A stretch of 64,000 nt of DNA from Nemertoderma westbladi (GCA_032718475.1 JAUCBJ010000678.1:67882-131881); one strand, 5' to 3'. Counted from the stretch's first letter, positions 13,810-39,729 are shown. The notes: generated by a model from the letters alone, not told the origin. Made by a program: numbers and translations.

Positions 13810-14076
13810 ATGGAATCAACTACCTCAAACGATGTCGCAGATGAATCGAAGGGAGGAGACGTTAATATCGAGGAAATCACACCCAAAGGCAATGTGGAGG
13901 CAGATTTAAATTTAAAAAAAATTCCCAGACCTGGTGAAACACTACCAGGACCAAACGGATGGCCGATTTTAGGGAACCTTCTAGATATGCCAAAGATCGC
14001 TGATAGTCTACCGGAATGGCTGGAAAAGTTAACGCATGAATTTGGATCTATTTTTCGATTGCAACTGGGAAGCAGG
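13810..14076 (+). CDS. Cytochrome P450 (clan 2-like), coding exon 1
   Basis: ATG 13810 with in-frame TGA at 13804-13806. Likely acceptor ttag at 13781-13784, implying an upstream 5'UTR intron. Proline hinge LPGPNGWPILGNL, then FGSIFRLQLGSR; donor agg|gtaaat, phase 0. Confidence 0.88.
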
Positions 14077-14307: not shown

Positions 14308-14475
14308 ACGATGGTATTTTTTCATGGCAAAGAGGCTTTTCACGAAGCCTTCGTTGAAAAAGTCGACTATTTTCAGACTCGAATGAATTACAGTTTGTGG
14401 CACAAAATATCTGAAGGATCTGGTTTCACGGGAAGCATTTCTAAACACATCAGCATTCACAGAAAGATGACCGCC
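14308..14475 (+). CDS. Cytochrome P450, coding exon 2
   Basis: Acceptor ttttag|acg. TMVFFHGKEAFHEAFVEKVDYFQTR...IHRKMTA matches the VVLxGxxAIxEALV..F..R region. Donor gcc|gtaagt, phase 0. Confidence 0.85.
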
Positions 14476-15155: not shown

Positions 15156-15433
15156 GAGTATCTAAAGGGATTGGAGAGTCAATTAATCTCACAAGTCATT
15201 CCGAATGAGATGGAAAAAGCTTCCAATTGGTTAGAAAGTCGTGCTGGTCAAGCGATAGACCCAGCAGACGCTCTCGACAGAGCCTTGTCCAACATTGCGA
15301 TCTTCAAAGCTTTCGGGAAAACGTACGAATACGACGATCCGGAATTCCTGAAGCGACGAGAAGTTATGTGGGAGTTTATAAACACTACAACACCAACCGC
15401 AGTGAAAACATACACCCTCAGTCGGCTAACAAT
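15156..15433 (+). CDS. Cytochrome P450, coding exon 3 (helices D-F)
   Basis: Acceptor tatag|gag. EYLKGLESQ...GQAIDPADALDRALSNIAIFKAFGKTYEYDDPEF matches the CYP2 pattern G.PFDP...AVSNII..I.FG.RFDY.DPEF. Donor aat|gtaagt, phase 2. Confidence 0.9.
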
Positions 15434-18400
15434 GTAAGTTGAGTAGTTTATAAACACTACAACACCAACCGCATTGAAAACATACACCCTCAGTCGGCTA
15501 ACAATGTAAGTTGAGTAGTTTATAAACACTACAACACCAACCGCAGTGAAAACATACACCCTCAGTCGGCTAACAATGTAAGTTGAGTAGTTTATAAACA
15601 CTACAACACCAACCGCATTGAAAACATACACCCTCAGTCGGCTAACAATGTAAGTTGAGTATTTTATAAACACTACAACACCAACCGAAGTGAAAACATA
15701 CACCCTCAGTCGGCTAACAATGTAAGTTGAGTAGTTTATAAACACTACAACACCAACCGCAGTGAAAACATACACCCTCAGTCGGCTAACAATGTAAGTT
15801 GAGTAGTTTATAAACACTACAACACCAACCGCATTGAAAACATACACCCTCAGTCGGCTAACAATGTAAGTTGAGTATTTTATAAACACTACAACACCAA
15901 CCGAAGTGAAAACATACAACCTCAGTCGGCTAACAATGTAAGTTGAGTAGTTTATAAACTATACAACACCAACCGCAGTGAAAACATACACCCTCAGTCG
16001 GCTAACAATGTAAGTTGAGTTTATAAACACTACAACACCAACCGCAGTGAAAACATACAACCTCAGTCGGCTAACAATGTAAGTTGAGTTTATAAACACT
16101 ACAACACCAACGGCAGTGAAAACATACACCCTCAGTCGGATAACAATGTAAGTTGAGATTATAAACACTACAACACCAACGGCAGTGAAAACATACACCC
16201 TCAGTCGGCTAACAATGTAAGTTGAGTTTATAAACACTACAACACCAACGGCAGTGAAAACATACACCCTCAGTCGGCTAACAATGTAAGTTGAGTTTAT
16301 AAACACTACAACACTAACCGCAGTGAAAACATACACCCTCAGTCGGCTAACAATGTAAGTTGAGTTTATAAACACTACAACACCAACGGCAGTGAAAACA
16401 TACACCCTCAGTCGGCTAACATTGTAAGTTGAGTTTATAAACACTACAACACCAACCGCAGTGAAAACATACACCCTCAGTCGGCTAACAATGTAAGTTG
16501 AGTTTATAAACACTACAACACCAACCGCAGTAAAAACATACAACCTCAGTCGGCTAACAATGTAAGTTGAGTTTATAAACACTACAACACCAACCGCAGT
16601 GAAAACATACAACCTCAGTCGGCTAACAATGTAAGTTGAGTAGTTTATAAACACTACAACACCAACCGCAGTGAAAACATACACCCTCAGTCGGCTAACA
16701 ATGTAAGTTGAGTTTATAAACACTACAACACCAACCGCAGTGAAAACATACACCCTCAGTCGGCTAACAATGTAAGTTGAGTTTATAAACACTACAACAC
16801 CAACCGCAGTGAAAACATACACCCTCAGTCGGCTAACAATGTAAGTTGAGTTTATAAACACTACAACACCAACCGCAGTGAAAACATACACCCTCAGTCG
16901 GCTAACAATGTAAGTTGAGTTTATAAACACTACAACACCAACCGCAGTGAAAACATACACCCTCAGTCGGCTAACAATGTAAGTTGAGTTTATAAACACT
17001 ACAACACCAACCGCAGTGAAAACATACACCCTCAGTCGGCTAACAATGTAAGTTGAGTTTATAAACACTACAACACCAACCGCAGTGAAAACATACACCC
17101 TCAGTCGGCTAACAATGTAAGTTGAGTTTATAAATACTACAACACCAACCGCAGTGAAAACATACACCCTCAGTCGGCTAACAATGTAAGTTGAGATTAT
17201 AAACACTTCAACACCAACCGCAGTGAATACATACACCCTCAGTCGGCTAACAATGTAAGTTGAGTTTATAAACACTACAACACTAACCGCAGTGAAAACA
17301 TACCCCCTCAGTCGGCTAACAATGTAAGTTGAGTTTATAAACACTACAACACCAAACGCAGTGAATACATACACCCTCAGTCGGCTAACATTGAAAGTTG
17401 AGTTTATAAACACTACAACACCAACCGCAGTGAAAACATACAACCTCAGTCGGCTAACAATGTAAGTTGAGTAGTTTATAAACACTACAACACCAACCGC
17501 AGTGAAAACATACACCCTCAGTCGGCTAACAATGTAAGTTGAGTTTATAAACACTACAACACCAACCGCAGTAAAAACATACACCCTCAGTCGGCTAACA
17601 ATGTAAGTTGAGTTTATAAACACTACAACACCAACCGCAGTGAAAACATACACCCTCAGTCGGCTAACAATGTAAGTTGAGTTTATAAACACTACAACAC
17701 CAACCGCAGTGAAAACATACACCCTCAGTCGGCTAACAATGTAAGTTGAGTTTATAAACACTACAACACCAACCGCAGTGAAAACATACACCCTCAGTCG
17801 GCTAACAATATAAGTTGAGTTTATAAACACTACAACACCAACCGCAGTGAAAACATACACCCTCAGTCGGCTAACAATGTAAGTTGAGTTTATAAACACT
17901 ACAACACCAACCGCAGTGAAAACATACACCCTCAGTCGGCTAACAATGTAAGTTGAGTTTATAAACACTACAACACCAACCGCAGTGAAAACATACACCC
18001 TCAGTCGGCTAACAATGTAAGTTGAGTTTATAAACACTACAACACCAACCGCAGTGAAAACATACACCCTCAGTCGGCTAACAATGTAAGTTGAGTTTAT
18101 AAACACTACAACACCAACCGCAGTGAAAACATACACCCTCAGTCGGCTAACAATATAAGTTGAGTTTATAAACACTACAACACCAACCGCAGTGAAAACA
18201 TACACCCTCAGTCGGCTAACAATGTAAGTTGAGTTTATAAACACTACAACACCAACCGCAGTGAAAACGTACACCCTCAGTCGGCTAACAATGTAAGTTG
18301 AGTTTATAAACACTACAACACCAACCGCAGTGAAAAAATACAACCTCAGTCGGCTAACAATGTAAGTTGAGTAGTTTATAAACACTACAACACCAACCGC

Positions 18401-21400
18401 AGTAAAAACATACAACCTCAGTCGGCTAACAATGTAAGTTGAGTTTATAAACACTACAACACCAACCGCAGTGAAAACATACAACCTCAGTCGGCTAACA
18501 ATGTAAGTAGAGTAGTTTATAAACACTACAACACCAACCGCAGTGAAAACATACACCCTCAGTCGGCTAACAATGTAAGTTGAGTTTATAAACACTACAA
18601 CACCAACCGCAGTGAAAACATACACCCTCAGTCGGCTAACAATGTAAGTTGAGTTTATAAACACTACAACACCAACCGCAGTGAAAACATACACCCTCAG
18701 TCGGCTAACAATGTAAGTTGAGTTTATAAACACTACAACACCAACCGCAGTGAAAACATACACCCTCAGTCGGCTAACAATGTAAGTTGAGTTTATAAAC
18801 ACTACAACACCAACCGCAGTGAAAACACACACCCTCAGTCGGCTAACAATATAAGTTGAGTTTATAAACACTACAACACCAACCGCAGTGAAAACATACA
18901 CCCTCAGTCGGATAACAATGTAAGTTGAGTTTATAAACACTACAACACCAACCGCAGTGAAAACATACAACCTCAGTCGGCTAACAATGTAATGTAAGTT
19001 GAGTTTATAAACACTACAACACCAACGGCAGTGAAAACATACACCCCCAGTCTGCTAACAATGTAAGTTGAGTTTATAAACACTACAACACCAACCGCAG
19101 TGAAAACATACACCCTCAGTCGGCTAACAATGTAAGTTGAGTAGTTTATAAACACTACAACACCAACCGCATTGAAAACATACACCCTCAGTCGGCTAAC
19201 AATGTAAGTTGAGTATTTTATAAACACTACAACACCAACCGAAGTGAAAACATACACCCTCAGTCGGCTAACAATGTAAGTTGAGTAGTTTATAAACACT
19301 ACAACACCAACCGCAGTGAAAACATACACCCTCAGTCGGCTAACAATGTAAGTTGAGTAGTTTATAAACACTACAACACCAACCGCATTGAAAACATACA
19401 CCCTCAGTCGGCTAACAATGTAAGTTGAGTATTTTATAAACACTACAACACCAACCGAAGTGAAAACATACAACCTCAGTCGGCTAACAATGTAAATTGA
19501 GTAGTTTATAAACTATACAACACCAACCGCAGTGAAAACATACACCCTCAGTCGGCTAACAATGTAAGTTGAGTTTATAAACACTACAACACCAACCGCA
19601 GTGAAAACATACAACCTCAGTCGGCTAACAATGTAAGTTGAGTTTATAAACACTACAACCACAACGGCAGTGAAAACATACACCCTCAGTCGGATAACAA
19701 TGTAAGTTGAGATTATAAACACTACAACACCAACGGCAGTGAAAACATACACCCTCAGTCGGCTAACAATGTAAGTTGAGTTTATAAACACTACAACACC
19801 AACGGCAGTGAAAACATACACCCTCAGTCGGCTAACAATGTAAGTTGAGTTTATAAACACTACAACACTAACCGCAGTGAAAACATACACCCTCAGTCGG
19901 CTAACAATGTAAGTTGAGTTTATAAACACTACAACACCAACGGCAGTGAAAACATACACCCTCAGTCGGCTAACATTGTAAGTTGAGTTTATAAACACTA
20001 CAACACCAACCGCAGTGAAAACATACACCCTCAGTCGGCTAACAATGTAAGTTGAGTTTATAAACACTACAACACCAACCGCAGTAAAAACATACAACCT
20101 CAGTCGGCTAACAATGTAAGTTGAGTTTATAAACACTACAACACCAACCGCAGTGAAAACATACAACCTCAGTCGGCTAACAATGTAAGTTGAGTAGTTT
20201 ATAAACACTACAACACCAACCGCAGTGAAAACATACACCCTCAGTCGGCTAACAATGTAAGTTGAGTTTATAAACACTACAACACCAACCGCAGTGAAAA
20301 CATACACCCTCAGTCGGCTAACAATGTAAGTTGAGTTTATAAACACTACAACACCAACCGCAGTGAAAACATACACCCTCAGTCGGCTAACAATGTAAGT
20401 TGAGTTTATAAACACTACAACACCAACCGCAGTGAAAACATACACCCTCAGTCGGCTAACAATGTAAGTTGAGTTTATAAACACTACAACACCAACCGCA
20501 GTGAAAACATACACCCTCAGTCGGCTAACAATGTAAGTTGAGTTTATAAACACTACAACACCAACCGCAGTGAAAACATACACCCTCAGTCGGCTAACAA
20601 TGTAAGTTGAGTTTATAAACACTACAACACCAACCGCAGTGAAAACATACACCCTCAGTCGGCTAACAATGTAAGTTGAGTTTATAAATACTACAACACC
20701 AACCGCAGTGAAAACATACACCCTCAGTCGGCTAACAATGTAAGTTGAGATTATAAACACTTCAACACCAACCGCAGTGAATACATACACCCTCAGTCGG
20801 CTAACAATGTAAGTTGAGTTTATAAACACTACAACACTAACCGCAGTGAAAACATACCCCCTCAGTCGGCTAACAATGTAAGTTGAGTTTATAAACACTA
20901 CAACATCAAACGCAGTGAATACATACACCCTCAGTCGGCTAACATTGAAAGTTGAGTTTATAAACACTACAACACCAACCGCAGTGAAAACATACAACCT
21001 CAGTCGGCTAACAATGTAAGTTGAGTAGTTTATAAACACTACAACACCAACCGCAGTGAAAACATACACCCTCAGTCGGCTAACAATGTAAGTTGAGTTT
21101 ATAAACACTACAACACCAACCGCAGTAAAAACATACACCCTCAGTCGGCTAACAATGTAAGTTGAGTTTATAAACACTACAACACCAACCGCAGTGAAAA
21201 CATACACCCTCAGTCGGCTAACAATGTAAGTTGAGTTTATAAACACTACAACACCAACCGCAGTGAAAACATACACCCTCAGTCGGCTAACAATGTAAGT
21301 TGAGTTTATAAACACTACAACACCAACCGCAGTGAAAACATACACCCTCAGTCGGCTAACAATATAAGTTGAGTTTATAAACACTACAACACCAACCGCA

Positions 21401-24400
21401 GTGAAAACATACACCCTCAGTCGGCTAACAATGTAAGTTGAGTTTATAAACACTACAACACCAACCGCAGTGAAAACATACACCCTCAGTCGGCTAACAA
21501 TGTAAGTTGAGTTTATAAACACTACAACACCAACCGCAGTGAAAACATACACCCTCAGTCGGCTAACAATGTAAGTTGAGTTTATAAACACTACAACACC
21601 AACCGCAGTGAAAACATACACCCTCAGTCGGCTAACAATGTAAGTTGAGTTTATAAACACTACAACACCAACCGCAGTGAAAACATACACCCTCAGTCGG
21701 CTAACAATATAAGTTGAGTTTATAAACACTACAACACCAACCGCAGTGAAAACATACACCCTCAGTCGGCTAACAATGTAAGTTGAGTTTATAAACACTA
21801 CAACACCAACCGCAGTGAAAACGTACACCCTCAGTCGGCTAACAATGTAAGTTGAGTTTATAAACACTACAACACCAACCGCAGTGAAAAAATACAACCT
21901 CAGTCGGCTAACAATGTAAGTTGAGTAGTTTATAAACACTACAACACCAACCGCAGTAAAAACATACAACCTCAGTCGGCTAACAATGTAAGTTGAGTTT
22001 ATAAACACTACAACACCAACCGCAGTGAAAACATACAACCTCAGTCGGCTAACAATGTAAGTAGAGTAGTTTATAAACACTACAACACCAACCGCAGTGA
22101 AAACATACACCCTCAGTCGGCTAACAATGTAAGTTGAGTTTATAAACACTACAACACCAACCGCAGTGAAAACATACACCCTCAGTCGGCTAACAATGTA
22201 AGTTGAGTTTATAAACACTACAACACCAACCGCAGTGAAAACATACACCCTCAGTCGGCTAACAATGTAAGTTGAGTTTATAAACACTACAACACCAACC
22301 GCAGTGAAAACATACACCCTCAGTCGGCTAACAATGTAAGTTGAGTTTATAAACACTACAACACCAACCGCAGTGAAAACACACACCCTCAGTCGGCTAA
22401 CAATATAAGTTGAGTTTATAAACACTACAACACCAACCGCAGTGAAAACATACACCCTCAGTCGGATAACAATGTAAGTTGAGTTTATAAACACTACAAC
22501 ACCAACCGCAGTGAAAACATACAACCTCAGTCGGCTAACAATGTAATGTAAGTTGAGTTTATAAACACTACAACACCAACGGCAGTGAAAACATACACCC
22601 CCAGTCTGCTAACAATGTAAGTTGAGTTTATAAACACTACAACACCAACCGCAGTGAAAACATACACCCTCAGTCGGCTAAAAATGTAAGTTGAGTTTAT
22701 AAACACTACAACACCAACGGCAGTGAAAACATACACCCCCAGTCTGCTAACAATGTAAGTTGAGTTTATAAACACGACAACACCAACCGCAGTGAAAACA
22801 TACACCCTCAGTCGGCTAAAAATGTAAGTTGAGTTTATAAACACTACAACACCAACCGCAGTGAAAACATACACCCTCAGTCGGCTAACAATGTAAGTTG
22901 AGTTTATAAACACTACAACACCAACCGCAGTGAAAACATACACCCTCAGTCGGCTAAAAATGTAAGTTGAGTTTATAAACACTACAACACCAACCGCAGT
23001 GAAAACATACACCCTCAGTCGGCTAACAATGTAAGTTGAGTTTATAAACACTACAACACCAACCGCAGTGAAAACATACCCCCTCAGTCGGCTAACAATG
23101 TAAGTTGAGTTTATAAACACTACAACACCAACGGCAGTGAAAACATACACCCTCAGTCGGCTAACAATGTAAGTTGAGTTTATAAACACTGCAACACCAA
23201 CCGCAGTGAAAACATACACCCTCAGTCGGCTAACAATGTAAGTTGAGTTTATAAACACTACAACACCAATCGCAGTAAAAACATACACCCTCAGTCGGCT
23301 AACAATGTAATGTAAGTTGAGTTTATAAACACTACAACACCAACGGCAGTGAAAACATACACCCTCAGTCGGCTAACAATGTAAGTTGAGTTTATAAACA
23401 CTACAACACCAATCGCAGTAAAAACATACACCCTCAGTCGGCTAACAATGTAATGTAAGTTGAGTTTATAAACACTACAACACCAACGGCAGTGAAAACA
23501 TACACCCTCAGTCGGCTAACAATGCAAGTTGCGTTTATAAACACTACAACACCAACGGCAGTGAAAACATACACCCTCAGTCGGCTAACAATGTAAGTTG
23601 AATTTATAAACACTACAACACCAACGGCAGTGAAAACATACCCCCTCAGTCGGCTAACAATGTAAGTTGAGTTTATAAACACTACAACACCAACCGCAGT
23701 GAAAACATACACCCTCAGTCGGCTAACAATGTAAGTTGAGTTTATAAACACTACAACACCAACGGCAGTGAAAACATACACCCTCAGTCGGCTAACAATG
23801 TAAGTTGAGTTTATAAACACTACAACACCAACCGCAGTGAAAACATTCACCCTCAGTCGGCTAACAATGTAAGTTGAGTTTATAAACACTACAACACCAA
23901 CCGCAGTGAAAACATACACCCTCAGTCGGCTAACAATGTAAGTTGAGTTTATAAATACTACAACACCAACCGCAGTGAAAACATACACCCTCAGTCGGCT
24001 AACAATGTAAGTTGAGATTATAAACACTACAAAACCAACCGCAGTGAATACATACACCCTCAGTCGGCTAACAATGTAAGTTGAGTTTGTAAACACTACA
24101 ACACCAACCGCAGTGAAAACATACACCCTCAGTCGGCTAACAATGTAAGTTGAGTTTATAAACACTACAACACCAACGGCAGTGAAAACATACCCCCTCA
24201 GTCGGCTAACAATGTAAGTTGAGTTTAAAAACACTACAACACCAACGGCAGTGAAAACATACACCCTCAGTCGGCTAACAATGAAGTTGAGTTTATAAAC
24301 ACTACAACACCAACGGCAGTGAAAACATACCCCCTCAGTCGGCTAACAATGTAAGTTGAGTTTATAAACACTACAACACCAACGGCAGTGAAAACATACA

Positions 24401-27400
24401 CCCTCAGTCGGCTAACAATGTAAGTTAAGATTATAAACACTACAACACCAACCGCAGTGAATACATACACCCTCAGTCGGCTAACAATGTAAGTTGAGTT
24501 TGTAAACACTACAACACCAACCGCAGTGAAAACATACACCCTCAGTCGGCTAACAATGTAAGTTGAGTTTATAAACACTACAACACCAAACGCAGTGAAT
24601 ACATACACCCTCAGTCGGCTAACATTGTAAGTTGAGTTTATAAACACTACAACACCAACCGCAGTGAAAACATACACCCTCAGTCGGCTAACAATGTAAT
24701 GTAAGTTGAGTTTATAAACACTACAACACCAACGGCAGTGAAAACATAAACCCTCAGTCGGCTAACAATGTAAGTTGAGTTTATAAACACTACAACACCA
24801 ACGGCATTGAAAACATACCCCCTCAGTCGGCTAACAATGTAAGTTGAGTTTATAAACACTACAACACCAAACGCAGTGAATACATACACCCTCAGTCGGC
24901 TAACATTGTAAGTTGAGTTTATAAACACTACAACACCAAACGCAGTGAATACATACACCCTCAGTCGGCTAACAATGTAAGTTGAGTTTATAAACACTAC
25001 AACACCAACCGCAGTGAAAACATACACCCTCAGTCGGCTAACAATGTAATGTAAGTTGAGTTTATAAACACTACAACACCAACGGCAGTGAAAACATAAA
25101 CCCTCAGTCGGCTAACAATGTAAGTTGAGTTTATAAACACTACAACACCAACGGCATTGAAAACATACCCCCTCAGTCGGCTAACAATGTAAGTTGAGTT
25201 TATAAACACTACAACACCAAACGCAGTGAATACATACACCCTCAGTCGGCTAACATTGTAAGTTGAGTTTATAAACACTACAACACCTACCGCAGTAAAA
25301 ACATACACCCTCAGTCGGCTAAAAATGTAAGTTGAGTTTATAAACACTACAACACCAACGGCATTGAAAACATACCCCCTCAGTCGGCTAACAATGTAAG
25401 TTGAGTTTATAAACACTACAACACCAAACGCAGTGAATACATACGCCCTCAGTCGGCTAACATTGTAAGTTGAGTTTATAAACACTACAACACCAACCGC
25501 AGTGAAAACATTCACCCTCAGTCGGCTAACAATGTAAGTTGAGTTTATAAACACTACAACACCAACCGCAGTGAAAACATACACCCTCAGTCGGCTAACA
25601 ATGTAAGTTGAGTTTATAAATACTACAACACCAACCGCAGTGAAAACATACACCCTCAGTCGGCTAACAATGTAAGTTGAGATTATAAACACTTCAACAC
25701 CAACCGCAGTGAATACATACACCCTCAGTCGGCTAACAATGTAAGTTGAGTTTGTAAACACTACAACACCAACCGCAGTGAAAACATACACCCTCAGTCG
25801 GCTAACAATGTAAGTTGAGTTTATAAACACTACAACACCAACGGCAGTGAAAACATACCCCCTCAGTCGGCTAACAATGTAAGTTGAGTTTATAAACACT
25901 ACAACACCAACCGCAGTGAAAACATACACCCTCAGTCGGCTAACAATGTAAGTTGAGTTTATAAATACTACAACACCAACCGCAGTGAAAACATACACCC
26001 TCAGTCGGCTAACAATGTAAGTTGAGATTATAAACACTTCAACACCAACCGCAGTGAATACATACACCCTCAGTCGGCTAACAATGTAAGTTGAGTTTAT
26101 AAACACTACAACACTAACCGCAGTGAAAACATACCCCCTCAGTCGGCTAACAATGTAAGTTGAGTTTATAAACACTACAACACCAAACGCAGTGAATACA
26201 TACACCCTCAGTCGGCTAACATTGTAAGTTGAGTTTATGAACACTACAACACCAACCGCAGTGAAAACATTCACCCTCAGTCGGCTAACAATGTAAGTTG
26301 AGTTTATAAACACTACAACACCAACCGCAGTGAAAACATACACCCTCAGTCGGCTAACAATGTAAGTTGAGTTTATAAATACTACAACACCAACCGCAGT
26401 GAAAACATACACCCTCAGTCGGCTAACAATGTAAGTTGAGATTATAAACACTTCAACACCAACCGCAGTGAATACATACACCCTCAGTCGGCTAACAATG
26501 TAAGTTGAGTTTGTAAACACTACAACACCAACCGCAGTGAAAACATACACCCTCAGTCGGCTAACAATGTAAGTTGAGTTTATAAACACTACAACACCAA
26601 CGGCAGTGAAAACATACCCCCTCAGTCGGCTAACAATGTAAGTTGAGTTTATAAACACTACAACACCAACGGCAGTGAAAACATACACCCTCAGTCGGCT
26701 AACAATGAAGTTGAGTTTATAAACACTACAACACCAACGGCAGTGAAAACATACCCCCTCAGTCGGCTAACAATGTAAGATGAGTTTATAAACACTACAA
26801 CACCAACGGCAGTGAAAACATACACCCTCAGTCGGCTAACAATGTAAGTTGAGATTATAAACACTACAACACCAACCGCAGTGAATACATACACCCTCAG
26901 TCGGCTAACAATGTAAGTTGAGTTTGTAAACACTACAACACCAACCGCAGTGAAAACATACACCCTCAGTCGGCTCAAAATGTAAGTTGAGTTTATAAAC
27001 ACTACAACACCAACGGCAGTGAAAACATACACCCTCAGTCGGCTAACATTGTAAGTTGAGTTTATAAACACTACAACACCAACCGCAGTGAAAACATACA
27101 CCCTCAGTCGGCTAACAATGTAAGTTGTGTTTATAAACACTACAACACCAACCGCAGTGAAAACATACACCCTCAGTCGGCTAACAATGTAAGTTGAGTT
27201 TGTAAACACTACAACACCAACCGCAGTGAAAACATACACCCTCAGTCGGCTAACAATGTAAGTTGAGTTTATAAACACTACAACACCAACGGCAGTGAAA
27301 ACATACTCCCTCAGTCGGCTAACAATGTAAGTTGAGTTTATAAACACTACAACACCAACGGCAGTGAAAACATACACCCTCAGTCGGCTAACAATGTAAT

Positions 27401-28712
27401 GTAAGTTGAGTTTATAAACACTACAACACCAACCGCAGTGAAAACATACACCCTCAGTCGGCTAACAATGTAAGTTGAGTTTATAAACACTACAACACCA
27501 ATCGCAGTAAAAACATACACCCTCAGTCGGCTAACAATGTAATGTAAGTTGAGTTTATAAACACTACAACACCAACGGCAGTGAAAACATACACCCTCAG
27601 TCGGCTAACAATATAAGTTGAGTTTATAAACACTACAACACCAACAGCAGTGAAAACATACACCCTCAATCGGCTAACAATGTAAGTTGAGTAGTTTATA
27701 AACACTACAACACCAACCGCAGTGAAAACATACACCCTCAGTCGGCTAACAATGTAAGTTGAGTTTATAAACACTACAACACCAATCGCAGTAAAAACAT
27801 ACACCCTCAGTCGGCTAACAATGTAATGTAAGTTGAGTTTATAAACACTACAACACCAACGGCAGTGAAAACATACACCCTCAGTCGGCTAACAATGTAA
27901 GTTGAGTTTATAAACACTACAACACCAATCGCAGTAAAAACATACACCCTCAGTCGGCTAACAATGTAATGTAAGTTGAGTTTATAAACACTACAACACC
28001 AACGGCAGTGAAAACATACACCCTCAGTCGGCTAACAATGTAAGTTGAGTTTATAAACACTACAACACAAACGGCAGTGAAAACATACACCCTCAGTCGG
28101 ATAACAATGTAAGTTGAGTTTATAAACACTACAACACCAACCGCAGTGAAAACATACACCCTCAGTCGGCTAACAATGTAATGTAAGTTGAGTTTATAAA
28201 CACTACAACACCAAACGCAGTGAAAACATACCCCCTCAGTCGGCTAACAACAATGTAATGTAAGTTGAGTTTATAAACACTACAACACCAACCGCAGTGA
28301 AAACATACACCCTCAGTCGGCTAACAATGTAATGTAAGTTGAGTTTATAAACACTACAACACCAACGACCGTTAAAACATACACCCTCAGTCGGCTAAAA
28401 ATGTAAGTTGAGTTTATGAACACTACAACACTAACCGCAGTGAAAACATACACCCTCAGTCGGCTAACAATGTAAGTTGAGATTATAAACACTACAACAC
28501 CAACCGCAGTAAAAACATACACCCTCAGTCGGCTAACAATGTAATGTAAGTTGAGTTTATAAACACTACAACACCAACGGCAGTTAAAACATACACCCTC
28601 AGTCGGCTAACAATGTAAGTTGAGTTTATAAACACTACAACACCAACCGCAGTAAAAACATACACCATCAGTCGGCTAACAATGTAATGTAAGTTGAGTT
28701 TATAAACACTAC
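15372..28712 (+). repeat. 69-bp minisatellite, about 190 copies; unit = last 62 nt of CYP exon 3 + gtaagtt donor
   Basis: Unit gagtttataaacactacaacaccaaccgcagtgaaaacatacaccctcagtcggctaacaatgtaagtt. The first copy lies inside the exon. 68-, 72- and 74-bp variants occur. Confidence 0.97.
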
Positions 28713-29251
28713 GGCTGGCATTATTGTACACTTTGGGCCACAGTTGTTACATTTATTTTGATAAGTTTAAATGTTTAAAGGTTCCATGATGCAAACACAT
28801 GAACATTGATAGCCAGTAGCTCCGAGAGATTCCCCGTACTTAGTTCCAATTTAAGCCTCATGCGAATTTAGTTGCAATGGAAACGAATTTAGTTACAATT
28901 TAGGCGAACTTAGTTACAATAAAAAGGGAAAGACGAAAACGAATTTGGTTCAAATGCAGGCGAACTTAGTTCCAATGGATGCGAACTTAGTTCCAATGGA
29001 TGCGAACTTAGTTCCAATGGATGCGAACTTAGTTCCAATGGATGCGAATTTAGTTACAATTTAGGCGAACTTAGTTACAATGGATGCGAATTTAGTTACA
29101 ATTTAGGCGAACTTAGTTACAATAAAAAGGGAAAGACGAAAACGAATTTAGTTCAAATGCAGGCGAACTTAGTTCCAATGGATGCGAACTTAGTTCCAAT
29201 GGATGCGAACTTAGTTCCAATGGATGCGAATTTAGTTCCAACTTTTCAGGT

Positions 29252-29633
29252 GTGGGGCGAGCCACGTATTTCGGTGTGGCACTGTTTAATGCCACTATTA
29301 GGTAATTGGGTAAATAATAATTGTAAATAAGTAACCCAAACAACGCCCAACCTGCTAACACAAATAACGCCGTAGAACGAAAACGTATTTGGTGTGAAAA
29401 TGGGCAAATGTGCATGACTTCAGTATATAATTCAGTCAGTCAGAATCAGTATACTCGTTATTAATATATATTTTAAAATGTGTAATTATACATTTAATTC
29501 ATTAATAATAATTCGTTTTTAAAAATTGACAGAATGGTTTTACAATTATTTACAATTATTGTTGACCCTGACCCACCCCAAATAGTGGCAATACGCAATA
29601 GGCTTCGCCTATTACGTGGCTATCTATCCCCAC
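29252..29633. mobile_element. Helentron/DINE-like non-autonomous insert in the foldback core
   Basis: gtggggcgagccacgta at the left end is imperfectly inverted by tacgtggct...ccccac at the right. Subterminal hairpin aataggc-ttc-gcctatt (29597-29613). The tggggcgagcca motif recurs near 14206 and 49167. Confidence 0.45.
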
Positions 29634-29642
29634 GATTGAAAC

Positions 29643-32600
29643 ATTGGAACTAAGTTCATTTTGGAACTTGGAACTTGGAATTTGGAACTAAGTTCATTTT
29701 GGCATCCATTGGAACTAAATTCGCTTATTGGAACTAAGTTCGCTTATTGGAACTAAGTTCGCATCCATTGGAACTAAATTCGCATCCATTGGAACTAAAT
29801 TCGTATCCATTGGAACTAAATTCGTATCCATTGGAAGTAAATTCGCTTATTGGAACTAAGTTCGCTTCCATTGGAATTATATTTGCATGCATTGGAACTA
29901 AGTTCGTATCCATTGGAACTAAATTCACATCCATTGGAACTAAGTTCGCTTCCATTGTAACTAAATTCGCTTCTATTGGAACTAAATTCGCATCCATTGG
30001 AACTAAATTCGCATCCATTGGAACTAAATTCGTATCCATTGGAACTAAATTCGTATCCATTGGAAGTAAATTCGCTTATTGGAACTAAGTTCGCTTCCAT
30101 TGGAATTATATTTGCATGCATTGGAACTAAGTTCGTATCCATTGGAAGTAAATTCGCTTATTGGAACTAAGTTCGCTTCCATTGGAATTATATTTGCATG
30201 CATTGGAACTAAGTTCGCATCCGTTGGAACTAAATTCGCATCCATTGGAACTAAGTTCGCTTCCATTGTAACTAAATTCGCTTCCATTGGAATTATATTC
30301 GCATGCATTGGAACTAAGTTCGCATCCGTTGGAACTAAATTCGTATGCATTGGAACTAAATTCACATGCATTGGAACTAAATTAGTTTTAGTCTTTCCCT
30401 TGTTATTGGAACTAAGTTCGCATCCATTGGGACTAAATTCGTTTTAGTCTTTCCCTTGTTATTGGAACTAAGTTCGTATCCATTGGAACTAAGTTCGTAT
30501 CCATTGGAACTAAATTTGCTTCAATTGGAACTAAATTCGCATGCATTGGAACTAAATTAGTTTTAGTCTTTCCCTTATTATTGGAACTAAGTTCGCATCC
30601 ATTGGGACTAAATTCGTTTTAGTCTTTCCCTTGTTATTGGAACTAAGTTCGTATCCATTGGAACTAAGTTCGTATCCATTGGAACTAAGTTCGCATCCAT
30701 TGGGACTAAATTCGTTTTAGTCTTTCCCTTGTTATTGGAACTAAGTTCGCTTCCATTGGAACTAGGTTCGCATCCATTGGAACTAAATTTGCTTCCATTG
30801 GAACTAAATTTGCTCCCATTGGAACTAAATTCGTTTTAGTCTTTCCCTTGTGATTGGAACTAAGTTCGTATCCATTGGAACTAAGTTCGTATCCATTGGA
30901 ACTAAATTTGCTTCAATTGGAACTAAATTCGCATGCATTGGAACTAAATTCGCATGCATTGTAACTAAATTCGCATGCATTGGAACTAATTTCGTTTTAG
31001 TCTTTCCCTTGTTATTGGAACTAAGTTAATATCCATTGGAACTAAATTTGCTCCCATTGGAACTAAATTCGTATGCATTGGAACTAAATTCGCATCCATT
31101 GGAACTAAATTCGTTTTAGTATTTCCCTTGTTATTGGAACTAAGTTAATATCCATTGGAACTAAATTTGCTCCCATTGGAACTAAATTCGTATGCATTGG
31201 AACTAAATTCACATGCATTGGAACTAAATTTGTTTTAGTCTTTCCCTTGTTATTGGAACTAAGTTCGTATCCATTGGAACTAAATTTGCTTCCATTGGAA
31301 CTAAATTCGCATGCATTGGAACTAAATTCGCATGCATTGGAACTAAATTCGCATGCATTGGAACTAAATTCGTTTTAGTCTTTCCCTTGTTATTGGAACT
31401 AAGTTAATATCCATTGGAACTAAATTTGCTCCCATTGGAACTAAATTCGTATGCATTGGAACTAAATTCGCATCCATTGGAACTAAATTCGTTTTAGTCT
31501 TTCCCTTGTTATTGGAACTAAGTTAATATCCATTGGAACTAAATTTGCTCCCATTGGAACTAAATTCGTATGCATTGGAACTAAATTCACATCCATTGGA
31601 ACTAAATTCGCATGCATTGGAACTAAATTCGCATGCATTGGAACTAAATTCGTTTTAGTCTTTCCCTTGTTATTGGAACTAAGTTCGTATCCATTGGAAC
31701 TAAGTTCGTATCCATTGGAACTAAATTTGCTTCCATTGGAACTAAATTCGCATGCATTGGAACTAATTTCGTTTTAGTCTTTCCCTTGTTATTGGAACTA
31801 AGTTCGTATCCATTGGAACTAAGTTCGTATCCATTGGAACTAAGTTCGTATCCATTGGAACTAAATTTGCTCCCATTGGAACTAAATTTGTTTTAGTCTT
31901 TCCCTTTTTATTGGAACTAAGTTCGTATCCATTGGAACTAAATTCGTTTTAGTCTTTCCCTTGTTATTGGAACTAAGTTCGTATCCATTGGAACTAAATT
32001 TGCTTCAATTGGAACTAAATTCGCATGCATTGGAACTAAATTCACATGCATTGGAACTAAATTCGTTTTAGTCTTTCCCTTGTTATTGGAACTAAGTTCG
32101 TATCCATTGGAACTAAATTCGTTTTAGTCTTTCCCTTGTTATTGGAACTAAGTTAATATCCATTGGAACTAAATTTGCTTCAATTGGAACTAAATTCGCA
32201 TGCATTGGAACTAAGTTCACATGCATTGGAACTAAATTCGTTTTAGTCTTTCCCTTGTTATTGGAACTAAGTTCGTATCCATTGGAACTAAGTTCGTATC
32301 CATTGGAACTAAATTTGCTCTCATTGGAACTAAATTTGTTTTAGTCTTTCCCTTGTTATTGGAACTAAGTTCGTATCCATTGGAACTAAATTCGTTTTAG
32401 TCTTTCCCTTGTTATTGGAACTAAGTTCGTATCCATTGGAACTAAGTTCGTATCCATTGGAACTAAGTTCGTATCCATTGGAACTAAATTTGCTTCAATT
32501 GGAACTAAATTCGCATGCATTGGAACTAAATTTGCTCCCATTGGAACTAAATTCGCATGCATTGGAACTAAATTTGCTCCCATTGGAACTAAATTCGCAT

Positions 32601-35600
32601 GCATTGGAACTAAATTCGTTCTAGTCTTTCCCTTGTTATTGGAACTAAGTTCGTATCCATTGGAACTAAATTCGTTTTAGTCTTTCCCTTGTTATTGGAA
32701 CTAAGTTCGTATCCATTGGAACTAAATTCGCATGCATTGGAACTAAATTCGCATGCATTGGAACTAATTTCGTTTTAGTCTTTCCCTTGTTATTGGAACT
32801 AAGTTAATATCCATTGGAACTAAATTTGCTCCCATTGGAACTAAATTCGCATGCATTGGAACTAAATTCGTTTTAGTCTTTCCCTTGTTATTGGAACTAA
32901 GTTCGTATCCATTGGAACTAAATTTGCTTCCATTGGAACTAAATTCGCATGCATTGGATCTAAATTCGTTTTATTATTTCACTTGTTATTTGAACTAAGT
33001 TCGTATCCATTGGAACTAAATTCGTTTTAGTCTTTCCCTTGTTATTGGAACTAAGTTCGTATCCATTGGAACTAAATTTGCTCCCATTGGAACTAAATTT
33101 GTTTTAGTCTTTCCCTTGTTATTGGAACTAAGTTCGTATCCATTGGAACTAAATTCGTTTTAGTCTTTCCCTTGTTATTGGAACTAAGTTTGTATCCATT
33201 GGAACTAAATTTGCTCCCATTGGAACTAAATTTGTTTTATTCTTTCCCTTGTTATTGGAACTAAGTTCGTATCCATTGGAACTAAATTCGTTTTAGTCTT
33301 TCCCTTGTTATTGGAACTAAGTTCGTATCCATTGGAACGAAATTCGTTTTAGTCTTTCCCTTGTTATTGGAACTAAATTCGTATCCATTGGAACTAAATT
33401 TGCTCCCATTGGAACTAAATTCGTTTTAGTCTTTCCCTTGTTATTGGAACTAAGTTCGTATCCATTGGAACTAAATTCGCTTCCATTGGAACTAAATTCG
33501 CTTCAATTGGAACTAAATTCGCTTCCATTGGAACTAAATTTGCTTCCATTGGAACTAAATTCGCATGCATTGGAACTAAATTCGCATGCATTGGAACTAA
33601 ATTCGCATGCATTGGAACTAAATTCGTTTTAGTCTTTCCCTTGTTATTGGAACTAAGTTAATATCCATTGGAACTAAATTTGCTCCCATTGGAACTAAAT
33701 TCGTATGCATTGGAACTAAATTCGCATCCATTGGAACTAAATTCGTTTTAGTCTTTCCCTTGTTATTGGAACTAAGTTAATATCCATTGGAACTAAATTT
33801 GCTCCCATTGGAACTAAATTCGTATGCATTGGAACTAAATTCACATCCATTGGAACTAAATTCGCATGCATTGGAACTAAATTCGCATACATTGGAACTA
33901 AATTCGTTTTAGTCTTTCCCTTGTTATTGGAACTAAGTTCGTATCCATTGGAACTAAGTTCGTATCCATTGGAACTAAATTTGCTTCCATTGGAACTAAA
34001 TTCACATGCATTGGAACTAAATTCGTTTTAGTCTTTCCCTTGTTATTGGAACTAAGTTCGCATCCATTGGAACTAAGTTCGCATCCATTGGAACTAAATT
34101 TGCTTCAATTGGAACTAAATTCGCATGCATTGGAACTAATTTCGTTTTAGTCTTTCCCTTGTTATTGGAACTAAGTTCGTATCCATTGGAACTAAATTTG
34201 CTCCCATTGGAACTAAATTTGTTTTAGTCTTTCCCTTGTTATTGGAACTAAGTTCGTATCCATTGGAACTAAATTCGTTTTAGTCTTTCCCTTGTTATTG
34301 GAACTAAGTTCGTATCCATTGGAACTAAATTTGCTTCAATTGGAACTAAATTCGCATCCATTGGAACTAAATTTGCTCCCATTGGAACTAAATTTGTTTT
34401 AGTCTTTCCCTTGTTATTGGAACTAAGTTCGTATCCATTGGAACTAAATTCGTTTTAGTCTTTCCCTTGTTATTGGAACTAAGTTCGTATCCATTGGAAC
34501 TAAATTTGCTTCAATTGGAACTAAATTCGCATGCATTGGAACTAAATTTGCTCCCATTGGAACTAAATTTGTTTTAGTCTTTCCCTTGTTATTGGAACTA
34601 AGTTCGTATCCATTGGAACTAAATTCGTTTTAGTCTTTCCCTTGTTATTGGAACTAAGTTAATATCCATTGGAACTAAATTTGCTTCAATTGGAACTAAA
34701 TTCGCATGCATTGGAACTAAATTCACATCCATTGGAACTAATTTCGTTTTAGTCTTTCCCTTGTTATTGGAACTAAGTTCGTATCCATTGGAACTAAGTT
34801 CGTATCCATTGGAACTAAATTTGCTCCCATTGGAACTAAATTTGTTTTAGTCTTTCCCTTGTTATTGGAACTAAGTTCGTATCCATTGGAACTAAATTCG
34901 TTTTAGTCTTTCCCTTGTTATTGGAACTAAGTTCGTATCCATTGGAACTAAGTTCGTATCCATTGGAACTAAATTTGCTTCAATTGGAACTAAATTCGCA
35001 TGCATTGGAACTAAATTTGCTCCCATTGGAACTATATTCGTTCTAGTCTTTCCCTTGTTATTGGAACTAAGTTCGTATCCATTGGAACTTAATTCGTTTT
35101 AGTCTTTCCCTTGTTATTGGAACTAAGTTCGTATCCATTGGAACTAAATTCGCATGCATTGGAACTAAATTCGCATGCATTGGAACTAATTTCGTTTTAG
35201 TCTTTCCCTTGTTATTGGAACTAAGTTAATATCCATTGGAACTAAATTTGCTCCCATTGGAACTAAATTCGCATGCATTGGAACTAAATTCGTTTTAGTC
35301 TTTCCCTTGTTATTGGAACTAAGTTCGTATCCATTGGAACTAAATTTGCTTCCATTGGAACTAAATTCGCATGCATTGGATCTAAATTCGTTTTATTATT
35401 TCACTTGTTATTTGAACTAAGTTCGTATCCATTGGAACTAAATTCGTTTTAGTCTTTCCCTTGTTATTGGAACTAAGTTCGTATCCATTGGAACTAAATT
35501 TGCTCCCATTGGAACTAAATTTGTTTTAGTCTTTCCCTTGTTATTGGAACTAAGTTCGTATCCATTGGAACTAAATTCGTTTTAGTCTTTCCCTTGTTAT

Positions 35601-38218
35601 TGGAACTAAGTTTGTATCCATTGGAACTAAATTTGCTCCCATTGGAACTAAATTTGTTTTAGTCTTTCCCTTGTTATTGGAACTAAGTTCGTATCCATTG
35701 GAACTAAATTCGTTTTAGTCTTTCCCTTGTTATTGAAACTAAGTTCGTATCCATTGGAACGAAATTCGTTTTAGTCTTTCCCTTGTTATTGGAACTAAAT
35801 TCGTATCCATTGGAACTAAATTTGCTCCCATTGGAACTAAATTCGTTTTAGTCTTTCCCTTGTTATTGGAACTAAGTTCGTATCCATTGGAACTAAATTC
35901 GCTTCCATTGGAACTAAATTCGCTTCAATTGGAACTAAATTCGCATGCATTGGAACTAAATTCGCTTCCATTGGAACTAAATTCGCATGCATTGGAACTA
36001 AATTCGCATGCATTGGAACTAAATTCGCATGCATTGGATCTAAATTCGTTTTATTCTTTCCCTTGTTATTGGAACTAAGTTCGTATCCATTGGAACTAAA
36101 TTCGTTTTAGTCTTTCCCTTGTTATTGGAACTAAGTTCGTATCCATTGGAACTAAATTCGTTTTAGTCTTTCCCTTGTTATTGGAACTAAATTCGTATCC
36201 ATTGGAACTAAATTTGCTCCCATTGGAACTAAATTCGTTTTAGTCTTTCCCTTGTTATTGGAACTAAGTTCGTATCCATTGGAACTAAATTCGTTTTAGT
36301 CTTTCCCTTGTTATTGGAACTAAGTTCGTATCCATTGGAACTAAATTCGTTTTAGTCTGTCCCTTGTTATTGGAACTAAATTCGTATCCATTGGATCTAA
36401 ATTTGCTCCCATTGGAACTAAATTTGTTTTAGTCTTTCCCTTGTTATTGGAACTAAGTTCGTATCCATTGGAACTAAATTCGCTTCCATTGGAACTAAAT
36501 TCGCATGCATTGGAACTAAATTCGCATGCATTGGAACTAAATTCGCATGCATTGGATCTAAATTCGTTTTATTCTTTCCCTTGTTATTGGAACTAAGTTC
36601 GTATCCATTGGAACTAAATTCGTTTTAGTCTTTCCCTTGTTATTGCAACTAAGTTCGTATCCATTGGAACTAAATTTGCTTCAATTGGAACTAAATTCGC
36701 ATGCATTGGAACTAAATTCGCATGCATTGGAACTAAATTCGTTTTAGTCTTTCCCTTGTTATTGGAACTAAGTTCGTATCCATTGGAACTAAATTTGCTT
36801 CCATTGGAACTAAATTCGTATGCATTGGAACTAAATTCGCATGCATTGGAACTAAATTCGTTTTCGTCTTTCCCTTGTTATTGGAACTAAGTTAATATCC
36901 ATTGGAACTAAATTTGCTTCAATTGGAACTAAATTCGCATGCATTGGAACTAAATTCGTTTTAGTCTTTCCCTTGTTATTGGAACTAAGTTCGCATCCAT
37001 TGGAACTAAGTTCATATCCATTGGAACTAAATTTGCTTCCATTGGAACTAAATTCACATGCATTGGAACTAAATTCGTTTTAGTCTTTCCCTTGTTAGTG
37101 GAACTAAGTTCGTATCCATTGGAACTAAATTTGCTTCCATTGGAACTAAATTCGCATGCATTGGAACTAAATTCGTTTTAGTCTTTCCCTTGTTATTGGA
37201 ACTAAGTTCGCATCCATTGGAACTAAGTTCATATCCATTGGAACTAAATTTGCTTCCATTGGAACTAAATTCACATGCATTGGAACTAAATTCGTTTTAG
37301 TCTTTCCCGTGTTATTGGAACTAAGTTCGCATCCATTAGAACTAAGTTCGTATCCATTGGAACTAAGTTCGCATCCATTGGGACTAAATTCGTTTTAGTC
37401 TTTCTCTTGTTATTGGAACTAAGTTCGTATCCATTGGAACTAAATTTGCTTCCATTGGAACTAAATTCGCATGCATTGGAACTAAATTCGCATGCATTGG
37501 AACTAAATTCGTTTTCGTCTTTCCCTTGTTATTAGAACTAAGTTCGTATCCATTGGAACTAAGTTCGCATCCATTGGGACTAAATTCGTTTTAGTCTTTC
37601 TCTTGTTATTGGAACTAAGTTCGCATCCATTAGAACTAAGTTCGTATCCATTGGAACTAAGTTCGCATCCATTGGGACTAAATTCATTTTAGTCTTTCTC
37701 TTGTTATTGGAACTAAGTTCGTATCCATTGGAACTAAATTTGCTTCCATTGGAACTAAATTCGCATGCATTGGAACTAAATTCGCATTCATTGGAACTAA
37801 ATTCATTTTCGTCTTTCCCTTGTTATTGGAACTAAGTTCGTATCCATTGGAACTAAGTTCGTATCCATTGGAACTAAGTTCGCATCCATTGGGACTAAAT
37901 TCGTTTTAGTCTTTCTCTTGTTATTGGAACTAAGTTCGTATCCATTGGAACTAAATTTGCTCCTATTGGAACTAAATTCGTTTTAGTCTTTCCCTTGTTA
38001 TTGGAACTAAGTTCGTATCCATTGGAACTAAGTTCGTATCCATTGGAACTAAATTTGCTTCCGTTGGAACTAAATTCGCATGCACTGGAACTAAATTCGC
38101 ATGCATTGGAACTAAGTTCGTTTTGATATTCTGGGATTGGAACTAAGTTCGCCTCGATTTGAACTAAGTTTGCTTTATAAAATTCATTTTGGAACTAAAT
38201 TCGTTTCGATTGGAACTT
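29643..38218. repeat. Composite satellite: 21-bp units (ccattggaactaaattcgcat) interspersed with a 35-bp unit (ggaactaaattcgttttagtctttcccttgttatt)
   Basis: Directly visible; blocks of one 35-mer plus a variable number of 21-mers. Confidence 0.96.
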
Positions 38219-39578
38219 AAGTTAGTGCTACCGCTCCGAGCTATTAGCTGCTGGCTCGTCGCCAATAGCTAATAGCCGGGGCCAATAAAATTAGCTATTG
38301 GCCGCAGCCAGTCCCAGTGGCTACGGTCCGTGAAGTTAGTAGCTATTTGCGAGAGGAAAGAAAATAGCCTTCAACCAAATCAGAGCCATGGCTACACGCT
38401 ACGTGCCATGCTATATATTTCACGTAGGCCTAAACTGTATCTGTTTCATCATTTTGTCTACACAACCTGTATTCGATACAATATTTAAATCAATAATATA
38501 CAGTTTGTAATAATAAACAAATAAGAAAGATACGCCCTGGCTAGTATCAAACCAAGACCACCGGAGAGATGTGAATGCAATTCAATGGATTTAACTACTA
38601 CACAAGGTTTTGTTATTCTACAAGGTTTTGTTATTCTACAAGTTTTTGTTATTTTACCAGTTTTTGTTATTCTGGTTTTGTTTTATTTATTTATTTAAAA
38701 AAAAATAATTCTAGAACATATGTATTTTGTTCTAGAACAACGGGTGTGGGGTCCGAAACTGGTACGTGCCACGTCCTCAATTAAAAATTAAAGTAAGCCG
38801 TGAAAACTTTATATGTGATGGGTGGACATTAACTGAAAGATACAAAACAAAGATTCGATGTGGAACCATTGCAGATAGCTGTGTTTTTCATGGGAACCGG
38901 GATGACATTGTCTCAAATAGCTACGAGCCGCGGCCAACAGCTAGTAGCCTGCCGATACTAGCTATTTTCAGTGGCTTTTTACCCGATTTTAGCTGTTGTT
39001 ATTTGATCTCCTTCTGTAATAATTATTATATTGTATATGTAATATTTTCAATAAATATGATCTGTTATATTACATTTATATCATATTTGTTGATGGTGTA
39101 ATTTAATCAGGGGCATTAAGTTGCCCAAAGTTGATGTTGTGTTGTATAAAGCGCTAGCTTATATGCGTTGAGAAGTAATAGATATAACAAATACTGTAGG
39201 TTAATTTTTTAAAGTCACTACATATTTGGCGTTTGCGCATATATGGGGGGACTTCCGGTGCAATAAAAATTCACCACCCTCCCCATGGGAGAATCGACGC
39301 AAATAACAGTTGAGTACTCACAAAAAGAACTGTAAGATGTTATATTGACTTTAGTTTATTGTTTTGGTTAGAATATATGCCACTGTAACCTGCACCTTTA
39401 CCTTAATTGATATTATTACATTGAGACGAGATATTAATTCACCGAGAAGGGATATTTGCGTCAAGTTTTCCCCTGATTCAGTTTGCGGTCATTTTACGCC
39501 AATAACTCCCAATTGATGTACCAGAGAGTAGGCCCTAGAGACACAGATATTATATAAACTGTACCATCCATCGCGCAG

Positions 39579-39729
39579 GTATATTCCGGGAACTGCTCCG
39601 TATCGCGCGGCTAAAGCTTCGGCGTTGCTGAATGAATGTATCCGAGAGGAGATGGAGAAAAGTAAAATCAAACACATCAAACACGAAAAACAGTGCAGTT
39701 TAATCGAAGCCTGGCTACAACGTGCCGAG
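39579..39729 (+). CDS. Cytochrome P450, coding exon 4 (F-G loop to helix H)
   Basis: Acceptor cgcag|G completes ATG with exon 3 (phase 2). YIPGTAPYRAAKASALLNECIREEMEKSK...CSLIEAWLQRAE fits the YLPG...DFIDAYL pattern. Donor gag|gtaact, phase 0. Confidence 0.85.

What the first reader, a model, noticed from the sequence alone, without database searches (positions are those of the whole stretch)
15372..28712. A P450 exon tip and its splice donor amplified about 190 times: decoy-donor array or cassette library for a substrate-recognition region
Seen: the 69-bp unit is exactly the last 62 coding nt of exon 3 (EFINTTTPTAVKTYTLSRLTM) plus GTAAGTT, so 13.3 kb of intron carries about 190 near-consensus 5' splice sites. 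Using any but the first includes the in-frame TAA in ATGTAA. Copies carry missense variants (TALK, TEVK, YNL, YPL, PNAVNT, PIAV, TFT, RIT, EII, TST). Established: this position, the end of helix F and the F-G loop, is around SRS-2 of P450s. Inference: the array could tune expression through unproductive splicing and NMD. Alternatively, unequal crossover or conversion could move variant units into the first, coding position and diversify specificity. It also resembles the tandem-duplication route of intron gain.
Basis: partly seen in the sequence, partly recalled or inferred. Interest (0 to 1): 0.82.

Follow-up and report, generated by a model that had tools for sequence, protein, structure and literature searches.

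The report
Giant splice-donor repeat in P450 intron
The last 62 coding bases of one exon of an animal cytochrome P450 gene, plus its splice signal, are repeated 191 times into the next intron; the copies show no sign of selection, so this is likely a tolerated, oversized example of a repeat type already known from human and lancelet genes, not a built-in library of enzyme variants.

Summary
15372-28712 is 191 head-to-tail units plus 17 nt; unit 1 is the last 62 nt of exon 3 plus intron +1..+7 of a divergent clan-2-like P450, at the end of helix F and the F-G region. 177 of 191 units keep GTAAGT, and any later donor brings in a stop. Public runs of two studies hold the unit at far higher depth than the flank.

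Substitutions are neutral (12 synonymous of 48; 49 of 180 possible). Donors decay like the rest of the unit. The stop follows from any phase-2 GTAA donor. The acceptor lies 10.9 kb past the array, so the array did not make the intron. 54% of the window is tandem repeat.

The kind is in print: human F7, CBS, IFI6, LMNB2, PDGF junction minisatellites and amphioxus 'mirages', where mostly the first donor is used. Unreviewed scan notes report many larger arrays in other genes of this genome. No RNA holder was listed, so splicing and first-unit variation are untested. Residual novelty: 101 of 191 units encode another peptide, so exchange into unit 1 could make this site hypermutable.

The parts
15372..28712 (+). 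69-bp junction-spanning satellite, 191 units + 17 nt
15372..15440 (+). Unit 1: last 62 coding nt of exon 3 (P450 residues 218-238, end of helix F and F-G region) plus intron +1..+7; equals the modal unit (45 of 191)
15434..15440 (+). Authentic (first) 5' splice site, phase 2; its +2..+4 is the in-frame TAA met if any later donor is used
   Evidence: use in RNA not tested
15585..22623 (+). Higher-order duplication: 15585-19069 and 19139-22623, 3,485 nt each, lag 51 units, 4 differences
28696..28712 (+). 17-nt partial last unit; the junction to unique DNA is also seen in run X1 with one base different
13810..14076 (+). P450 exon 1 (predicted); no hydrophobic N-terminal anchor
14308..14475 (+). 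P450 exon 2 (predicted)
15156..15433 (+). P450 exon 3 (predicted), Pfam p450 E 1.4e-5, nearest solved chains CYP2D6/2A
15434..39578 (+). Intron 3, 24,145 nt, of which 22,281 nt are tandem repeat (69-bp array plus unrelated 21-bp arrays)
39579..39729 (+). P450 exon 4 (predicted); acceptor for the first donor; no Pfam hit on its own
40276..40450 (+). P450 exon 5 (predicted), I helix with an atypical motif
58646..58806 (+). P450 exon 6 (predicted), K-helix ExxR; later exons with the heme cysteine not found in the window

Best explanation
The array is a 191-copy tandem repeat of a P450 exon end plus its splice donor, likely a neutral by-product of runaway repeat expansion that is likely tolerated because splicing would keep using the first donor. 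Step 1 (inferred): a 69-bp duplication across the exon 3 / intron 3 junction arose in a genome prone to minisatellite growth. Step 2 (structure shown, mechanism inferred): slippage and unequal exchange expanded it, leaving shared variants, a 51-unit higher-order duplication and a gradient of divergence away from the exon. Step 3 (shown): unit 1 stays in place, so the exon and reading frame are intact and all extra copies are intronic. Step 4 (inferred from F7, LMNB2, PDGF and amphioxus data): exon definition or 5'-to-3' scanning picks the first donor; small leak to donors 2-3 would give stop-containing mRNA that nonsense-mediated decay would likely remove. Arrays with this geometry survive because arrays wholly inside exons would break genes.
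For: Neutral substitution pattern and neutral donor decay. Stops in the 'cassettes'. 34,259 of 64,000 nt of the window are tandem repeat, 41% even without this array; at least four other unrelated arrays lie around or inside the same gene. Only 1 of 12 exon borders of the gene is repeated. Intact 400-codon frame through the first donor, with the helix E-F to exon-4 span 38 residues against 36-38 in five homologous domains. Print precedent: only the first donor is used in F7, LMNB2 and PDGF, first plus two more in IFI6 and CBS (PMC1557585); amphioxus mirages do not disturb splicing (PMC3087553; PMC3902484). Unreviewed scan notes list like arrays in housekeeping genes of this genome (leads only).
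Against: No RNA holder was listed, so donor use is untested here. The published arrays have 2-25 copies, and rules from them may not hold at 191. The neutrality test counts 48 distinct changes and has modest power. Unit 1 equals the modal unit and the left of the array is closer to it (0.95 against 1.69 changes per unit; 36 of 105 against 9 of 86 identical), which fits expansion from the exon but also continuing exchange with it. One scan note (GALNS) reports splicing from a variant copy inside such an array (unchecked).
Confidence: 0.74

Rival explanations
1. By-product hypermutability. The array has no function, but unequal crossover or conversion with a breakpoint inside unit 1 copies array variants into the coding exon, so residues 218-238 change faster than the rest of the enzyme.
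For: 101 of 191 units encode a different 20-residue peptide (41 peptides). Unit 1 is the modal unit and the adjacent units resemble it most. The unit region is 12% identical to homologues against 24% for the rest, while homologue pairs give 22% against 33%. Run X5, another sample, holds only one 99-nt contig with three differences; the two listed match a variant present 3 times in the window that changes two residues, a weak hint that arrays turn over to other units.
Against: The F-G region is variable in the homologues too, and the identity difference rests on 19-21 columns. The amphioxus paper reports that cluster boundaries are excluded from homogenisation. No run showed unit 1 joined to exon 3, so no allele of unit 1 was seen. 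X5 is of uncertain kind and depth.
Confidence: 0.13
2. Expression modifier. Later donors compete, their products are degraded, and array length or proximal donor state sets P450 mRNA level.
For: 177 of 191 donors intact; every later donor includes the stop. IFI6 and CBS use two extra donors. A reference title in PMC2630376 links the CBS VNTR to reduced activity (title only seen).
Against: Donors are not conserved above background. The stop needs no selection. In F7 the first donor wins over identical or stronger later ones, so copies beyond the first few would add little.
Confidence: 0.08
3. Selected cassette library for substrate-recognition variants.
For: The unit does cover the end of helix F and the F-G region, and variants exist.
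Against: No excess of missense; stops in 19 and 2 copies; mean pairwise divergence only 3.5%. Like arrays are noted in genes with no need for variation (unchecked).
Confidence: 0.02
4. The gene is decaying or the array length is partly an assembly error, so the array has no bearing on any enzyme.
For: No N-terminal anchor and an atypical I helix; heme-cysteine exons not found in the window. The 51-unit block repeats with 4 differences in 3,485 nt, as two joined haplotypes might. Depth ratios range 30-175.
Against: Six exons with canonical GT-AG, matching phases and no stop in 400 codons at 22-25% identity to relatives. The window ends 5.2 kb after exon 6 and two introns already exceed 18 kb. 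Dropping one block leaves about 140 units and changes no conclusion.
Confidence: 0.03

Closest known systems
Human junction-spanning minisatellites: F7 IVS7 (37 bp, 5-9 copies), IFI6/6-16 intron 2 (25 pseudo-sites), CBS IVS13 (31 bp), LMNB2 (100 bp, 10-15), PDGF intron 4 (81 bp, 16-18). PMC1557585: abstract, introduction, discussion read; PMC2630376: passages read
   Same: First monomer spans the exon end and donor, so identical donors repeat into the intron. The CBS unit, c.1444_1467+7, is also mostly exonic and also stops at intron +7.
   Different: 191 copies and 13.3 kb, about 8 to 40 times more copies; 62 of 69 nt exonic; a higher-order duplication; splicing untested here.
Amphioxus 'mirage' minisatellites (Adh3, globins BflGb6 and BflGb9, troponin C, PGBD5). 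PMC3087553: passages and section 16 read; PMC3902484: passages read; the original Adh3 paper not seen
   Same: Invertebrate tandem copies of an exon-intron border, with turnover and concerted evolution; BflGb9 repeats an exon 3' border as here; intron gain already proposed as a possible outcome.
   Different: The amphioxus arrays counted in these passages have 2-7 copies; here satellite scale. There cluster ends are excluded from homogenisation, here unit 1 is the modal unit.
Intron gain by intragenic tandem duplication (Rogers model, as cited in PMC3087553)
   Same: A duplication carries splice signals; one AG in the unit resumes in phase 2 and could in principle yield an in-frame 12-nt microexon.
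   Different: The intron already existed: the working acceptor is 10.9 kb beyond the array in unrelated sequence.
Clan-2 P450s (CYP2B4, CYP2D6, CYP2A) for the host gene
   Same: Proline-rich N-terminal motif, helix E-F motif, K-helix ExxR, colinear alignment over residues 46-400 (E 8e-47 against a five-domain profile).
   Different: 22-25% identity, no membrane anchor, I-helix motif altered; no relative closer than 38% over exon 3 found.

Membership tests
Junction-spanning minisatellite ('mirage', F7 type) | First monomer spans an exon-intron boundary | tested here: met
Junction-spanning minisatellite ('mirage', F7 type) | Splice signal reiterated head to tail in the intron | tested here: met
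   177 of 191 units keep GTAAGT
Junction-spanning minisatellite ('mirage', F7 type) | Tandem-repeat turnover (shared variants, block duplications) | tested here: met
   68 variants, lag-51 block
Junction-spanning minisatellite ('mirage', F7 type) | Length or content differs between alleles | tested here: inconclusive
   One-base difference at the right junction in X1, a different unit in X5, depth ratios 30-175; contig depth is no copy number
Junction-spanning minisatellite ('mirage', F7 type) | mRNA is spliced mainly at the authentic donor (usual property, not part of the structural definition) | not testable with these tools
   no RNA holder listed
Gene-conversion cassette library (features recalled, no call) | Silent cassettes enriched for amino-acid changes and kept free of stops | tested here: not met
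   12 synonymous of 48, p = 0.87; 19 copies with an in-frame TAG, 2 with Tyr-to-stop
Gene-conversion cassette library (features recalled, no call) | Expressed site varies between cells or individuals | tested here: inconclusive
   no contig joined exon 3 to unit 1 in 4 of 4 runs laid
Intron gain by tandem duplication | Donor and working acceptor both come from the duplicated unit | tested here: not met
   acceptor at 39579 is outside the array; unit has no copy elsewhere in the window
Cytochrome P450 superfamily (host gene) | P450 profile match and K-helix ExxR | tested here: met
   Pfam p450 on 4 of 6 exons singly; joined model E 8e-47
Cytochrome P450 superfamily (host gene) | Heme-binding cysteine motif | not testable with these tools
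   not found in the window; no genome held

The most novel reading that the evidence does not exclude
A functionless intronic satellite acts as a local mutator of its own exon. Because the coding exon tip is unit 1 of an array in which 101 of 191 units encode another peptide, recombination that turns the array over also rewrites the helix F / F-G residues of this P450. In a genome with many such arrays, molecular drive would then speed amino-acid change specifically at exon ends.
Probability: 0.13. Interest if true: 0.6.

Novelty: new member of a known kind. Interest (0 to 1): 0.27.

Why it matters
As one locus it matters little: the kind is described and the copies look neutral. It is a usable natural test of 5' splice-site choice at a scale beyond the published cases (191 near-identical donors in a 24-kb intron, each later one marked by a stop). 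It is also a clean place to ask whether satellite turnover leaks into coding sequence. The wider point, that this animal seems to grow such arrays in many genes, rests on unreviewed notes and needs a genome-wide count.

Tried and rejected
No whole genome is held, so paralogues, the end of the gene and a genome-wide count could not be searched. No RNA holder listed; this blank is not evidence. In one search exon 3 (14998-15371) had no cover in any of 4 runs, though X1-X3 hold 0.90-0.92 of the words of 13800-15440; a filter leaves records out, so alleles of unit 1 were not seen. Word-indexed protein searches found nothing: exon 3 against longer proteins (0 of 211 candidates) and near lengths (0 of 1); the PRDM N-terminal region (0 of 252). 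The full HMMER scan with exon 3 gave 7 hits at 25-38% identity; P0001 and P0002 are repetitive non-P450 sequences and were dropped, P0005 and P0007 were not used, and five domains from P0003, P0004, P0006 were aligned. A 24-nt exon/unit-1 junction pattern had 0 matches in metagenome contigs. Scan notes by sequence, by P450 words and near this place gave nothing. Paper searches gave 0 papers; two searches gave listings only, none read. Rejected: exonisation of a foreign satellite (the span matches homologues in length and the unit has no other copy in the window); cassette exons spliced from the array (of 4 AGs in the unit only one is in phase, and it is not the first AG after the branch-point-like motif). 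One search stopped on a script error after its first results; one search completed it. The organism was not identified; 'acoel' comes from one unreviewed note.

Full report
Observation. Tandem Repeats Finder reports one array at 15372-28712 with period 69, 191.2 copies and 94% matches. Alignment-based segmentation gives 191 full units and a 17-nt remainder, 68 distinct sequences, 45 of 191 identical to the first. Length variants come from a 3-nt insertion near the unit start (23 copies), a duplication around the donor (15 copies) and a 1-nt loss (2 copies). The first unit is the last 62 nt of an exon plus intron +1..+7. 179 of 191 units keep GT and 177 keep GTAAGT.

Host gene. Six predicted exons (13810-14076, 14308-14475, 15156-15433, 39579-39729, 40276-40450, 58646-58806) have GT-AG introns with matching phases and give 400 codons without a stop. 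Four of six exons hit Pfam p450 singly; exon 3 is nearest to CYP2D6 and CYP2A chains. The joined model scores E 8e-47 against a profile of five clan-2-like domains, at 22-25% identity. With the first donor, the span from the helix E-F motif to the exon-4 proline is 38 residues against 36-38 in homologues, so the exon tip is native P450 sequence. Counting on the CYP2B4 chain printed from Tyr190 as numbered in PMC4241269 (passages), unit 1 covers about residues 204-225; that paper places 202 and 209 in helix F and calls the F-G region SRS 2. PMC4821567 (passages) says part of helix F acts as a substrate-recognition site in CYP2D6. The enzyme is odd: no hydrophobic N-terminus (best 19-residue hydropathy -0.41 against 2.15-2.65 in three homologues) and an altered I-helix motif. 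The heme-cysteine exons are not in the window.

Is the array real? Three runs from two studies hold 0.90-0.92 of the words of exons 1-3 and their introns. Laid on 14800-15445, they show the unit at about 175, 77 and 30 times the depth of a flanking contig. The tool warns that this is no copy number, X1 and X3 are one sample yet differ sixfold, and one of the samples may be the source of the assembly. X1 and X3 show unit-to-unit junctions of the 72-nt variant. X1 shows the right end of the array running into the same unique DNA with one base different. X5, another sample, holds a single 99-nt contig (69 + 30, the size of a closed tandem loop at 31-letter words; my inference) with three differences, two listed, which match a variant found 3 times in the window. 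X5's kind is only guessed and its exon 3 had no cover, so this is a weak hint. The array exists; its exact length is unverified. Units 4-53 and 55-104 form a 3,485-nt duplication with 4 differences: a recent unequal exchange or two joined haplotypes.

Are the copies selected? No sign of it. Of 48 distinct substitutions in the 20 whole codons, 35 are missense, 12 synonymous and 1 nonsense, against 127, 49 and 4 possible (binomial p = 0.87). Donor positions +1..+6 show 5 of 18 possible changes against 49 of 186 in the exonic part (Fisher p = 1.0); copy-weighted divergence is 1.2% against 1.9%. 19 copies, unit 2 among them, carry an in-frame TAG near the start and 2 carry a Tyr-to-stop change. 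Mean pairwise divergence is 3.5%. The stop met on use of any later donor is +2..+4 of the first donor, which any phase-2 intron starting GTAA supplies. That such mRNA would be degraded follows from general knowledge of nonsense-mediated decay, with at least three exon junctions downstream. The test has modest power, but nothing points to a maintained library or maintained decoys.

Context. 34,259 of 64,000 nt are tandem repeat, 41% without this array; intron 3 is 92% tandem repeat. Unrelated 25-, 17-, 21- and 22-bp arrays of 1.5-8.4 kb lie upstream of the gene and in introns 3 and 5. Only 1 of 12 exon borders of the gene is repeated. A random 69-bp seed in this window's non-repeat DNA would span a donor about 1.1% of the time (crude), so a repeat-prone genome should hold many such cases, and this geometry leaves the gene intact. 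Scan notes on the same genome list donor arrays in GALNS, a nuclear receptor, a glutamate receptor, tensin, lysyl-tRNA synthetase, CstF-77 and a zinc transporter (about 400-2,100 copies) and acceptor arrays in mitoguardin, aconitase, beta-catenin, dynein, DHX9 and TFG (8 shown each of 72 and 61 fitting notes among 79). They are unreviewed AI notes that I did not test. They would make a P450-specific role unlikely, and this array one of the smaller ones.

Known kind. PMC1557585 (abstract, introduction, discussion) describes minisatellites whose first monomer spans an exon-intron boundary in human F7, IFI6, CBS, LMNB2 and PDGF. [quoted passage not shown] PMC2630376 (passages) writes the CBS unit as c.1444_1467+7, 16-21 copies. 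PMC3087553 (passages and section 16) and PMC3902484 (passages) describe amphioxus 'mirages', their length instability, normal splicing and a model for intron gain. Their supplements were not opened. I found no paper on arrays of over 100 copies in searches of an open-access library; that is weak evidence of absence.

Intron gain. The array did not create intron 3: the acceptor lies 10.9 kb past the array in unrelated DNA. One AG in the unit resumes in phase 2 with 8 of 13 upstream pyrimidines (real acceptors 7-10) and could give an in-frame 12-nt microexon; three other AGs are out of phase. Untested and unlikely.

What stays open. Donor use is untested because no RNA holder was listed. 101 of 191 units encode another peptide, unit 1 is the modal unit, and divergence rises away from the exon (rho 0.31 after dropping one duplicated block; units are not independent). 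That fits expansion from the exon, and also continuing exchange with it. The unit region is 12% identical to homologues against 24% elsewhere, but homologue pairs drop too (22% against 33%). If exchanges break inside unit 1 they would alter the F-G region; no allele of unit 1 was seen to test this.

Verdict. A real, large, new member of a known kind, most likely neutral and tolerated (0.74). Mutator by-product 0.13, expression modifier 0.08, decaying gene or partly wrong length 0.03, selected library 0.02. Interest 0.27.

Noticed in passing
window 13810-58806 (+): The host P450 lacks a hydrophobic N-terminal anchor and has an altered I-helix motif without the usual glycine and acid residue; no relative closer than 38% over exon 3 was found. 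It may be a soluble or non-monooxygenase P450.
   Followed up: partly
window 50119-53175 (-): A single 1,019-codon open frame with PR/SET domain, zinc knuckle and C2H2 fingers (PRDM family), without introns, nested antisense in P450 intron 5; homologue search found nothing.
   Followed up: partly
window 42408-49037: Foldback-like palindrome: long inverted arms 95-99% complementary, containing 22-bp arrays (43656-44053, 45920-47546), around a centre with an acidic 159-codon frame.
   Followed up: partly
window 28860-29241 and 29704-38121: Two 21-bp arrays in opposite orientation, with higher-order periods of 56-217 bp, start 150 nt after the 69-bp array; their arrival may have trimmed its end and the original intron start.
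   Followed up: no
window 8297-13683 and 3236-5023: A 17-bp array of about 313 copies ends 126 nt before the predicted start codon; a 25-bp array of 71 copies lies further upstream.
   Followed up: no
window 15372-28712: The substitution spectrum is rich in transversions: C>A 13 and A>T 8 of 55 distinct changes, transitions 19 of 55.
   Followed up: no
window 14844-14997: Short dispersed repeat pieces in intron 2 with summed contig depth up to about 18,000 in the runs laid.
   Followed up: no
window 60751-64000: A 287-bp two-copy repeat followed by a long open frame running off the window end with an alanine-rich repeat and no Pfam hit; possibly a retroelement.
   Followed up: no
window 1-520 and 1520-2050: Near-identical direct repeat about 1.53 kb apart, seen as matching translations.
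   Followed up: no
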